Assembly (NCBI GenBank): GCA_964016885.1
Contig: OZ024753.1
Location: 34,720,001-34,784,000 of the forward strand
Direction of reading: 5' to 3'
Length of the DNA stretch: 64,000 bases
From: Eledone cirrhosa
Lineage: Eukaryota
Below are positions 42,301-45,300 of this stretch, one piece after another. Every line of letters starts with the position of its first letter. Positions within the stretch are counted from its first letter, which is position 1. The translations under genes were made by a program, and so were the position numbers. The notes beneath the pieces were generated by a model, which saw only the letters and a program-made list of their open reading frames with translations, made no database searches and had not been told where the DNA came from.

Positions 42301-45300
42301 TCATTTCTCTCCAGCCTATGTATATCTAATATATATATATATATATATATATATATATATATATATATATATAACAAAGGAATTGTGGTAAGCAACCAAA
42401 TGGACCATAATGCACCAGAGTACTCAATACTTAGGGTAGTAGAGTGAGAAATAGGAAAAAGTATGGGGTCATACTTTTTCCTATATATATATATATATAT
42501 ATATATATATATGTGAATATAGACATAGAATATTCGAAAATATTCTGTATGTTTATAATAAACATTTTGAAGACCTAATCGCTATATAATAGAATACGTC
42601 ACGTATTACAATTAGATTCTCGATAAAAGCAAGGGAAGTAATCTACGCGTTTCATTCTTATTAGAAATCTTCAGGACTACATATCCAGTGCTTTTATCGA
42701 GAATGACACAGCTAGAGACTTATAGAATACTTAGCTGTGTACAGGAACTGGTTTGAAAGAGCGGTTGCCGGTCCGGCAGAAATTAGAAATTGGAATAAAT
42801 ATATATATATATAATATATATATATAATATACATATACTTAAATATGGCTGACTGAATACACACACGCCCCCCCCCCCCTTTTTATCTCATTTTTCCCCT
42901 GTCCTTCCTCTTCTCTTTATCTTTGTATTTTATCTTTTATTTCTCACTCTATCTTCTGATGAAGGACTAGTGTCTGAAATGTTAACACTCTTTTCCTGTT
43001 ATTTCAAGCATTAAACTAATACGTTTCTTCAATGTACTGTGACATTCGCTTTATTATTTCTGCTTACTTTTTACATACATACATACATATATATATATAT
43101 ATATATATATATATATACAGGGTGTCCCCAAAAAATGTATAGACACTTTGAGTACCTTATTAAAATACTGTTGAAGTGTGTATACATTTTTTTAGGACAC
43201 CCTGTATGTGTGTGTGTGTGTGTATATATATATATATCAGATGAAAGAAGGCATATTAATTTTTCCTTACCTTGATTGTCTCGAAGGCGGCTTGATTCTG
43301 TGTGAGGGTCAAAATTATAATTTGGCACTAACTTAACTCGCATGCGGGAGAAGTTTTCTTGGTTTGATAACTTCCAGTATTTGCATTCAGACGATCTGAA
43401 GAAGATATATAAAAATAGAAATAAAATAAACATAGAAAAACCTTCTTCTATGTCAGCCTAGCTCTGATCCCACTACAACTCATGTCCACTCATACATTGG
43501 CTACATCATAAGAAAATTTGGCCCTACATTTGTCACATCAAACATGTCCACTCTCTAGATGTAGAGTGTGGTCTTCCTTCCTGCTAAGTCTTTTGTCATG
43601 TAAGGTTTACTTTAACTATTAACATCTTGTAATAATTCAGCAGAAAATACCAGTGTGGACTGGACGCTTTTGTCGTGACCAGAAGGAAAAATGAAAATGT
43701 AATAATTACTCATCACACCACGCTCCACGTTTTGCAAGAAAGAACCGTTTGGTTGCTCTCCACTGTCTCATCACTGCGTTGTGTTGATTGCGGAGCTGTG
43801 TCGTTACATTCTGAAATCGGCGGTATTCTTGGGATATTTTAGATTTGGCAACATCCAAAATTTGACTCTGGAAAAGAAATTATTTGTGAGTGATGTAGTT
43901 TTCTTCAAGCATTGAGCTACATCAAATAGGACATTAAATTTTTAAAATAATGATATTGATAGTTCACAAATTCTGGTTCATGTATATCTGACATGATTAG
44001 CAGAAAGTCAAAAGTAGATTAACTTCTCATCCATAGAAAATGGAGGAAGTTTGTTTAAAAAAAAAAAGATAATAACCAGCTATATTCATCATCATCATCA
44101 TCATCATCATCATCGTTTAATGTCTATCTTCCATGCTAGCATGGGTTAGATGGAATTTTCCCACTTGAGGCAAGATTGATCGGGTGACCATGTCTCACTC
44201 GTATAGGACTGTATCTGGCTTGATTTCTATGGCTGGATGCCCTTCCTAACACCAACCTCATTTACAGTGTGGACTGAAATTCTGTCCTGAAATTTGAGGC
44301 GTTATGTCTGTGTAGGGAATCAATAATATAGTAGTTACCTGGAAAGAAAGTTTGCTCTTTCCCTGCCCCACATTTCGTTTGTGTTTGTTCGTCATCATCT
44401 TTTCGTGACATTCACTCCAGAACTCAATCATTGCTGATTGATGTTCTAAGAAGATTTTTTCAATGAACTGCTGTAACTGAGGGTTGATCTGGAAGAGAGA
44501 AATATAATAGGGATTTGTGAGATATGGGAGGACTCAACTGGAGGAAAGAAACGTGATAGAGATTTGTGGAAATATGGGAGGGTTGATCTGGAAGAGAGAA
44601 ATATATTTGTGAAATATGGGAGAGCTGAACTTGAAGAAAGAAATGTGGTAGATTTGTGAAATATGGGATGGCTGATCTGGAAGAGGGAAATATAATAGAG
44701 ATTTGTGAAATATGGGAGGGTTGAACTGGAAGAGAGAAATATAATAGAGTTTTGTGAGATATGGGAGGGCTCAACTTGAGGAAAGAAACGTGATAGAGAT
44801 TTGTGAGATATGGGAGGGTTGATCTGGAGGAGAGAAATATATTTGTGAAATATGGGAGAGCTGAACTTGAAGAAAGAAATGTGATAGATTTGTGAAATAT
44901 GGGAGGGTTGAACTGGAAGAGAGAAATATAACAGGGATTTGTGAGATTTGGGAGGTTTGATCTGGAAGAGAGAAATATAATAGGAATTTGTGAGATATGG
45001 GGGGCTCAACTGGAGGAAAGAAACGTGATGAGATTTGTGAAATATGGGAGGGTTGATCTGGAAGAGAGAAATATATTTGTGAAATATGGGAGAGCTGAAC
45101 TTGAAGAAAGAAATGTGATAGATTTGTGAAATATGGGATGGCTGATCTGGAAGAGAGAAATATAATAGAGATTTGTGAGATATGGGATAACAAATAATGA
45201 CAGCAACAGTAAAACTAATGGAAACATAGTTTCCTTGGTCTGATCTGAAAATCACCTCCTTATTCTTATTGACAGTTTAATAAAGAGAAAAAATATACAG

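What the first reader, a model, noticed from the sequence alone, without database searches (positions are those of the whole stretch)
42616..42704. Best-formed hammerhead: palindromic stem III and a 16-bp stem I extension, in pre-mRNA sense
Seen: intact core CUGAAGA...GAAA, GUA cleavage triplet, 6-bp stem I (GUAGUC/GAUUAC), 4-bp stem II with AAUA loop, and self-complementary ACGCGU in place of stem III. After an internal loop comes a perfect 16-bp helix (42616-42631 pairs with 42689-42704). Established: an internal loop in stem I that contacts loop II is typical of active type I hammerheads, and a palindromic stem III allows dimeric folding. Inference: this is the most likely catalytically competent copy, and it lies on the transcribed strand of the intron between exons 43271 and 42106.
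Basis: partly seen in the sequence, partly recalled or inferred. Interest (0 to 1): 0.7.

Follow-up and report, generated by a model that had tools for sequence, protein, structure and literature searches.

The report
Lone retrozyme copy in an intron
This self-cutting-RNA motif is real, but it is one lone, clipped copy of a young 310-base repeat with over 16,000 copies in this animal genome; it likely cuts well only in pairs and so likely does little to its host gene, while the family's back-to-back insertions suggest that a Penelope-type enzyme copies one RNA from two fixed start points.

Summary
The hammerhead is real, at the stated coordinates and in pre-mRNA sense of a BEACH-domain gene. 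The motif is not special. It lies in a 296-base, 5'-clipped, single copy (42505-42800) of a 310-base non-coding retrozyme with at least 16,554 hammerhead units; 3,935 of them have the mismatch repaired.

Stem III is one pair plus a palindromic loop, so two copies fold best as a double hammerhead. This copy has no partner in cis and is likely slow.

The 16-bp helix is a family feature: 8 of 16 pairs change on both sides in a sister subfamily, and transmitted variants never break the fold (12 of 12).

Family insertions sit in (TA)n, mostly as two divergent arms. In 56 of 56, one arm ends at unit 297-310 and the other at 24-33. Arms share a haplotype in 78 of 79. This is a Penelope-type footprint, likely from one template. 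No cleavage or RNA evidence was obtained. This scan reported the same family twice before on other pieces of this genome.

The parts
42505..42800 (-). Single, 5'-clipped copy of the 310-base retrozyme unit (unit positions 15-310)
   Evidence: 98.6% identical over 296 bases to the unit of L008; only copy of this family in the window
42689..42704 (-). 5' strand of the 16-bp outer helix
   Evidence: covaries in sister subfamilies
42681..42688 (-). 5' side of the stem I internal loop and 3-bp helix (includes the UAU bulge)
   Evidence: predicted fold; loop-loop contact inferred, not tested
42675..42680 (-). Stem I, 5' strand
   Evidence: pair probabilities 0.78-1.0
42668..42674 (-). Catalytic core CUGAAGA (variable position 7 at 42670)
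   Evidence: only position 7 varies among transmitted haplotypes
42654..42667 (-). Stem II: U·U at 10.1/11.1, 4 pairs, AAUA loop
   Evidence: A-U form in 3,935 other units
42644..42653 (-). GAAA, palindrome ACGCGU (42650-42645) and GUA triplet; cut predicted after 42644
42638..42643 (-). Stem I, 3' strand
42616..42631 (-). 3' strand of the 16-bp outer helix
42505..42514 (-). Fixed 3' end of the element (unit 301-310), inferred first reverse-transcription start site
   Evidence: same end in 38 of 38 partner arms; 2,087 raw pattern matches, some counted twice
42483..42504 (.). (TA)n target, downstream flank
42801..42832 (.). TA-rich target, upstream flank; 5' junction with AT microhomology
   Evidence: the same junction motif at 6 genomic places including this one
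42107..43270 (-). Host intron (1,164 bases, GT-AG)
43271..43395 (-). Upstream host exon (DUF4800)
   Evidence: E 1.3e-17
41977..42106 (-). Downstream host exon
   Evidence: open in frame with its neighbours; no Pfam match itself; exons further on match PH_BEACH

Best explanation
The motif is a type I hammerhead in a lone, 5'-clipped copy of a young 310-base non-coding repeat (a non-LTR retrozyme) that sits in a TA microsatellite in an intron; it is predicted to cut efficiently only as a pair, so this copy is likely a near-silent passenger, and the family is likely spread by a Penelope-like (PLE) enzyme copying one RNA, probably a circle, from two fixed start points.

Shown: the unit, copy number, (TA)n targets, two-armed layout, fixed ends, one haplotype per insertion, and fold-preserving variation.

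Inferred steps: (1) arrays are transcribed; neighbouring hammerheads pair through ACGCGU and cut out monomers (about 0.85); (2) monomers are ligated to circles, in which the single ribozyme is off (about 0.7); (3) a PLE reverse transcriptase-endonuclease nicks both strands of (TA)n and primes one end at unit 301-310 and the other at 24-33 on the same RNA (about 0.75); (4) both run round the template and the two cDNAs are joined at random 5' truncations (rolling circle about 0.6); (5) this copy is a short one-armed product with no partner, too slow to matter in the roughly 10 s before the next exon is made (about 0.75).
For: Family size: 12,619 plus 3,935 exact core matches, control 0, 310-base period. 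Youth: 113 unit-private changes in 703 units, 0.05% per site.

Ends: of 40 loci picked only for a tail end, 39 are two-armed and 38 of 38 with both ends in view have the partner at the 301-310 end. Also 10 of 10 among 14 loci picked by the ribozyme pattern and 8 of 8 among 13 loci picked by the other end. Craig 2021 (PMC8557442, passages) describes PLE insertions with an inverted 5'-truncated copy, a 30-40 base tail at one end and (TA)n targets. Frangieh 2024 (PMC11167929, abstract, passages, second part of main text) shows both strands nicked and extended and two internal start sites bounding the tail.

Ends are not at the cut site (unit 171) and arms read through it, so the template was ligated or uncut. 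Arms share the 4-site haplotype in 78 of 79, chance 0.23. Variants private to one locus fill every unit of both arms, for example 24 of 24 in L221.

Selection: 12 of 12 transmitted substitutions in unit 111-199 keep core and pairing, against 9 of 26 unit-private ones (Fisher p 2e-4, 80 loci). Sister subfamilies keep the outer helix with 8 of 16 (L209, L237) or 3-4 of 16 pairs changed on both sides, and share both end sites.

Dimer need: active monomer fold -24.6 against minimum -31.3 kcal/mol; the best fold of two copies is the double hammerhead, -68.7 against -62.6. Axolotl monomers cleave 6% and 22% in an hour and dimers much better; one family has the same U·U (PMC7229834, section 15).
Against: No cleavage, RNA or circle was observed. 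Folding energies ignore tertiary contacts, and this copy keeps a UAU bulge and AAUA loop, so it may cut somewhat alone.

In L215 both arms begin with two units of one haplotype and then switch; in L206 both arms carry the same change in their last unit. These 2 loci fit a multi-unit template, not a monomer circle; 60 other unit-level differences in overlapping positions are not shared.

Five of the six transmitted changes at paired sites are A>G, which transition bias or RNA editing would also give. The helper is not identified: a Hydra-type PLE shares the ribozyme core but not the end region. In the anole PLE, ribozyme cleavage was not needed for insertion in vitro (PMC11167929). Only 1 of 9 Xenopus retrozyme dimers cleaved in vitro (10.64898/2026.07.22.740005). 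Nearly all compared loci come from contig C1.
Confidence: 0.75

Rival explanations
1. Same element and same PLE helper, but the template is an uncut linear read-through transcript of a genomic array; long arrays come from copying long transcripts or from later local expansion, and circles are a by-product.
For: L215 and L206 show both arms copying the same multi-unit pattern from the 3' end. Unprocessed RNA was the main substrate of the anole PLE in vitro (PMC11167929). Li 2026 proposes local tandem expansion.
Against: Locus-private variants fixed in every unit of both arms need a one-unit bottleneck followed by amplification. Only 2 loci share unit-level differences against 60 unshared cells. 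The ribozyme is kept intact among transmitted variants.
Confidence: 0.3
2. This copy cuts the host pre-mRNA often enough to lower or alter expression of the BEACH gene, alone through loop-loop contacts or by pairing in trans with free retrozyme RNA.
For: Sense orientation and intact core. Stable stem I and outer helix. The trans double hammerhead is the lowest-energy cofold. The intronic CPEB3 ribozyme affects its mRNA (PMC10919898, passages).
Against: One-pair stem III plus U·U; no partner in cis; only 537 bases to the 3' splice site. [quoted passage not shown] The copy is very young (one private change) and shows no sign of domestication.
Confidence: 0.15
3. A satellite or MITE-like repeat spread at the DNA level, with the 16-bp inverted repeat as transposon ends and the hammerhead a relic.
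For: A perfect 16-bp inverted repeat; tandem arrays.
Against: The inverted repeat is internal (unit 111-126 and 184-199), not terminal. 3' ends are fixed and 5' ends scatter over the whole unit. The core is under constraint.
Confidence: 0.03

Closest known systems
Animal non-LTR retrozymes (Cervera and de la Pena 2020, PMC7229834: passages, sections 15 and 17; Li, Clavereau and Pollet 2026, 10.64898/2026.07.22.740005: parts 1-3 of 5)
   Same: About 300-base, low-GC (34.5%), non-coding tandem unit with one type I hammerhead; thousands of copies; weak palindromic stem III; U·U at the base of stem II as in axolotl HHR_Amex2; PLEs in the same genome.
   Different: The parts I read do not describe two-armed insertions with a strict pairing of two end sites or one haplotype per insertion. 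Here the U·U and the one-pair stem III occur together. RNA, circles and cleavage are not shown here.
Penelope-like elements with C-terminal endonuclease, Hydra clade (Craig 2021, PMC8557442: passages and section 11)
   Same: (TA)n targets, inverted 5'-truncated arm, tail of about 26-35 bases at one end. A PLE in this genome with DKT, RWR and CxCx5C motifs (L112, L113) carries a hammerhead with nearly the same core and stem II (10,889 matches).
   Different: No ORF in the unit. The end region of the unit has no detected match to that PLE's ends, whose two end sites lie further apart.
Anole Poseidon PLE in vitro (Frangieh 2024, PMC11167929)
   Same: AT-rich target, both strands extended, two internal start sites that bound the tail.
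   Different: That paper saw no difference in start site between strands and does not pair the sites within one insertion. Here each two-armed insertion uses one of each (56 of 56).
Domesticated intronic hammerheads of amniotes (HH9/RECK; PMC6155905, passages)
   Same: Type I fold, intronic, sense strand.
   Different: Those are single, deeply conserved loci. This is one of more than a thousand young insertions, and scores 17 bits against a gathering score of 52 for HH9.

Membership tests
Type I hammerhead ribozyme | Core CUGANGA, GAAA and NUH with stems I-III, stem I open-ended | tested here: met
Type I hammerhead ribozyme | Base pair at 10.1-11.1 | tested here: not met
   U·U in this copy; A-U in 3,935 other units; U·U is known in a cleaving axolotl family (PMC7229834)
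Type I hammerhead ribozyme | Loop 1-loop 2 tertiary contact | tested here: inconclusive
   Internal loop with UAU bulge and AAUA loop predicted; loop II varies among haplotypes; contact not modelled
Type I hammerhead ribozyme | Site-specific self-cleavage | not testable with these tools
   needs an in vitro assay
Rfam hammerhead families | Score above the gathering threshold | tested here: not met
   HH9 17 bits against 52; no hammerhead among the 150 of 197 window matches listed
Non-LTR retrozyme | Short low-GC tandem unit with one type I hammerhead per unit | tested here: met
   310 bases, 34.5% GC, arms up to at least 26 units
Non-LTR retrozyme | No protein-coding capacity, no LTRs | tested here: met
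   no stop-to-stop frame of 110 aa covers the copy; one 136-aa low-complexity frame overlaps only its last 77 bases; arrays are bounded by (TA)n
Non-LTR retrozyme | At least two consecutive ribozymes (active element as defined by Li 2026) | tested here: not met
   this copy is under one unit; met by most other loci
Non-LTR retrozyme | Expressed as linear and circular monomer RNA | not testable with these tools
   no run on record as RNA was available
PLE-mobilised element | Inverted 5'-truncated arm, tail at one end, (TA)n target | tested here: met
   family level: 56 of 56 two-armed loci; this copy has the target and the fixed end but one arm only
PLE-mobilised element | Autonomous partner that shares the terminal region | tested here: inconclusive
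   PLEs are abundant; Hydra-type PLE shares the ribozyme core only; no ORF-linked match to the end region among the loci held
Domesticated intronic ribozyme | Single locus conserved across species | tested here: not met
   one private change from a common haplotype of a young family; orthologous sites in other species could not be compared

The most novel reading that the evidence does not exclude
Each insertion records one PLE complex priming both cut ends of the target on the same small RNA circle, one at each of two fixed sites, and rolling round it. This would explain the inverted arm and the tail of Penelope-like elements. The palindrome would act as a switch: on in arrays, off in circles and lone copies, and perhaps on again when free retrozyme RNA pairs in trans with lone sense copies in host introns such as this one.
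Probability: 0.45. Interest if true: 0.7.

Novelty: new member of a known kind. Interest (0 to 1): 0.45.

Why it matters
The copy itself is ordinary and probably does little. The family is useful. How animal retrozymes are mobilised, and why Penelope-like elements carry an inverted arm and a one-sided tail, are open questions in the papers read. A very young family with well over a thousand insertions gives a sharp rule: one of each start site and one template per insertion. That rule can be tested with a purified enzyme and a 310-base circle. Lone sense copies in introns also give a direct test of whether dimer dependence protects host genes.

Tried and rejected
DNA search of the genome with the motif returned nothing; the tool skips very common words, so patterns were used. 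A fuzzy-regex script timed out. Rfam hits to miRNA families are TA-repeat noise.

Sequencing runs: no RNA holder listed. Contigs of 4 of the 6 runs, kind not on record, were laid on the element. Two hold one 340-base contig that closes on itself, which tandem DNA would give as well, so it is not used as evidence of a circle. A loose end from one run has no match in this genome.

Helper search: GIY-YIG loci and the sister-ribozyme PLE share no end region with the unit. The L112 ORF has no Pfam match and only a weak match to L061 (E 2e-4); its clade rests on motifs listed in PMC8557442 section 11. No Atlas result was available for that ORF.

Rows left out: L195-L221 (27 loci) were picked for having both ends and are not in the 56 of 56. 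L001 and L116-L128 were picked by the ribozyme pattern and are not in the selection test. Clusters of three or more changes within 15 bases were dropped as junction artefacts. The L250 helix count was anchored one base out of register and is not used. The empty-site and orientation-bias tests could not be run.

MITE reading rejected: the inverted repeat is internal. Paper searches found no description of this family or of the paired-end rule; supplements of PMC7229834, PMC11167929 and the Li preprint were not seen and could bear on this. The host taxon is not established; cephalopod search terms were my guess from recall.

Full report
Observation. The minus strand of 42616-42704 holds a type I hammerhead as described: a perfect 16-bp outer helix, an internal loop, a 6-bp stem I, the core CUGAAGA, a 4-bp stem II with AAUA loop, GAAA, the palindrome ACGCGU and a GUA triplet, with the cut predicted after 42644. 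It folds at z -6.97. A strict descriptor finds only this motif in the window and none in 100 shuffles. Rfam sees it only weakly (HH9, 17 bits, E 0.31). The motif lies in a 1,164-base GT-AG intron (43270-42107) of a minus-strand gene whose exons match DUF4800 and PH_BEACH; the name neurobeachin-like is my recall. It is in pre-mRNA sense, 537 bases before the 3' splice site.

What it belongs to. The core pattern has 12,619 exact matches in the 3.0-Gb genome, with a 310-base period and no control match. A second haplotype with A at 10.1 adds 3,935. The window holds unit positions 15-310 at 42800-42505, 98.6% identical to an array unit, between TA runs. It differs from the family majority at three sites. 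Two define a haplotype found at 16 of 92 loci, and one lies outside the ribozyme and is private. Units within arrays differ by 0.05% per site, so the family is very young. The 3' end pattern has 890 forward matches, about 1,800 insertions if both strands are alike (an estimate), and the commonest tail end has 1,051. This matches the non-LTR retrozymes of PMC7229834 and of the Li 2026 preprint.

Is this the competent copy? Probably not. PMC4209133 (passages) states that the short palindromic helix III of metazoan hammerheads impedes cleavage as a monomer and that a nearby second copy allows an active dimer. Here the active monomer fold lies 6.7 kcal/mol above the minimum, while the best fold of two copies is exactly the double hammerhead, 6.1 kcal/mol below two monomers (tertiary contacts are not modelled). 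Array units have a partner 310 bases away; this copy has none in the window. It also lacks the A-U pair that about a quarter of counted units have. At the polymerase speed implied in PMC10919898, the next exon is reached in about 10 s, and slow intronic ribozymes had no effect on splicing in the work cited there. A drop in intron coverage is therefore unlikely, though untested.

The long helix is real at family level. In 80 loci chosen by end patterns (703 units), all 12 transmitted substitutions in unit 111-199 keep the core and the pairing, against 9 of 26 unit-private ones (p 2e-4). Two one-base insertions in stem I were not classed. Five of six paired-site changes are A>G, so mutation bias may contribute. 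Older sister subfamilies, 72-84% alike over the end region (1,244 matches for one), keep the outer helix with different letters. Against this copy, 8 of 16 pairs change on both sides with none broken in L209 and L237, and 3-4 change with 1-2 broken in four others (hand-anchored, few independent lineages). Some sister copies have the U3-A8 core covariation reported in PMC4209133.

How it spreads. Insertions sit in (TA)n, mostly as two arms pointing apart. Of 40 loci picked only for a tail end, 39 are two-armed, and 38 of 38 with both ends in view have the other arm at the 301-310 end. The same holds for 10 of 10 among 14 loci picked by the ribozyme and 8 of 8 among 13 picked by the other end. 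So 56 of 56 use one of each site. 5' ends scatter over the unit and arms meet with mostly 0-7 bases of overlap or gap. Neither end is the ribozyme cut site (unit 171). The inverted arm, the tail and the TA target are the PLE signature (PMC8557442), and two internal start sites with both strands extended were shown in vitro (PMC11167929). The old sister subfamily uses the equivalent two sites.

One template. The two arms share the four-site haplotype in 78 of 79 informative insertions, where chance gives 0.23. Locus-private variants fill every unit of both arms. That needs a one-unit bottleneck followed by amplification, most simply a reverse transcriptase rolling on a circle, as PMC7229834 proposed. 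Against it, L215 and L206 show both arms copying the same multi-unit pattern, so some templates were multimers; 60 other differences in overlapping positions were not shared.

Helper. The genome is rich in GIY-YIG elements (10,598 candidates, 150 scored). A PLE with Hydra-clade motifs (L112, L113, PMC8557442 section 11) carries a hammerhead with nearly the same core and stem II, including U·U (10,889 matches), and is also two-armed in (TA)n. A fragment of it lies in this window at 23277-23450. It does not share the end region, so kinship of the ribozymes is likely but the helper is not shown.

Verdict. A real, ordinary copy of a new member of a known class. The family-level footprint is the part of value. 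I found no description of it in the searches listed, with supplements unseen. This scan's earlier notes on two other pieces of this genome and three other genomes say the same. I saw them after forming my reading, and they are not independent evidence. Interest 0.45.

Noticed in passing
window 23277-23450: Two-armed inverted fragment in (TA)n of the Hydra-type PLE end, with the sister hammerhead on both strands.
   Followed up: partly
window 23500-23900, 19450-19600, 20040-20180: Another TA-flanked family with a hammerhead-like motif (8-bp stem I, TA palindrome in stem III); inverted pair at 23610-23659 (-) and 23801-23850 (+), relative at 19501-19550 (-).
   Followed up: no
window 42956-42984 (+), 20563-20620 (+), 20844-20884 (-): Further minimal hammerhead-like motifs, one antisense in the same intron.
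   Followed up: no
window 42400-42480 and 20695-20789: A second repeat end (82% alike between the two places) abuts the same TA run as the retrozyme copy, so the run took more than one insertion.
   Followed up: no
L215 1-7401; L206 500-1860: Both arms start with the same minority units and then switch haplotype, a sign of multi-unit templates.
   Followed up: partly
L116-L128, L195-L274, unit-wide: A>G makes up 9 of 29 transmitted substitutions but 10 of 102 unit-private ones; could be an imprint of A-to-I editing on the template RNA, or a polarity artefact. Not tested statistically.
   Followed up: partly
L032 2450-2870, L121 4370-4730, L209, L237 4460-5270, L250, L275-L304: Older sister retrozyme subfamilies with the same end sites, different ribozymes, some with a U3-A8 core and a 12-base palindromic stem III.
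   Followed up: partly
L200 1-4252: Two two-armed insertions with identical junctions about 3 kb apart, likely a later local duplication.
   Followed up: no
L061 3309-6122, L062, L063: Long reverse transcriptase plus GIY-YIG frames (938 and 1,096 aa stop to stop) with no hammerhead found by my scan; possible young PLEs.
   Followed up: partly
runs X4, X5, X6 laid on window 42515-42795: The same unit, within 4 changes, occurs in runs labelled as three other organisms; related species, transfer or contamination not resolved.
   Followed up: no
window 48000-60000: Long, strongly skewed repeat tract (GC skew about 0.82).
   Followed up: no
window 16512-16569 (-), 27935-27998 (+): Partial tRNA matches just above the Rfam threshold, possibly SINE heads.
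   Followed up: no
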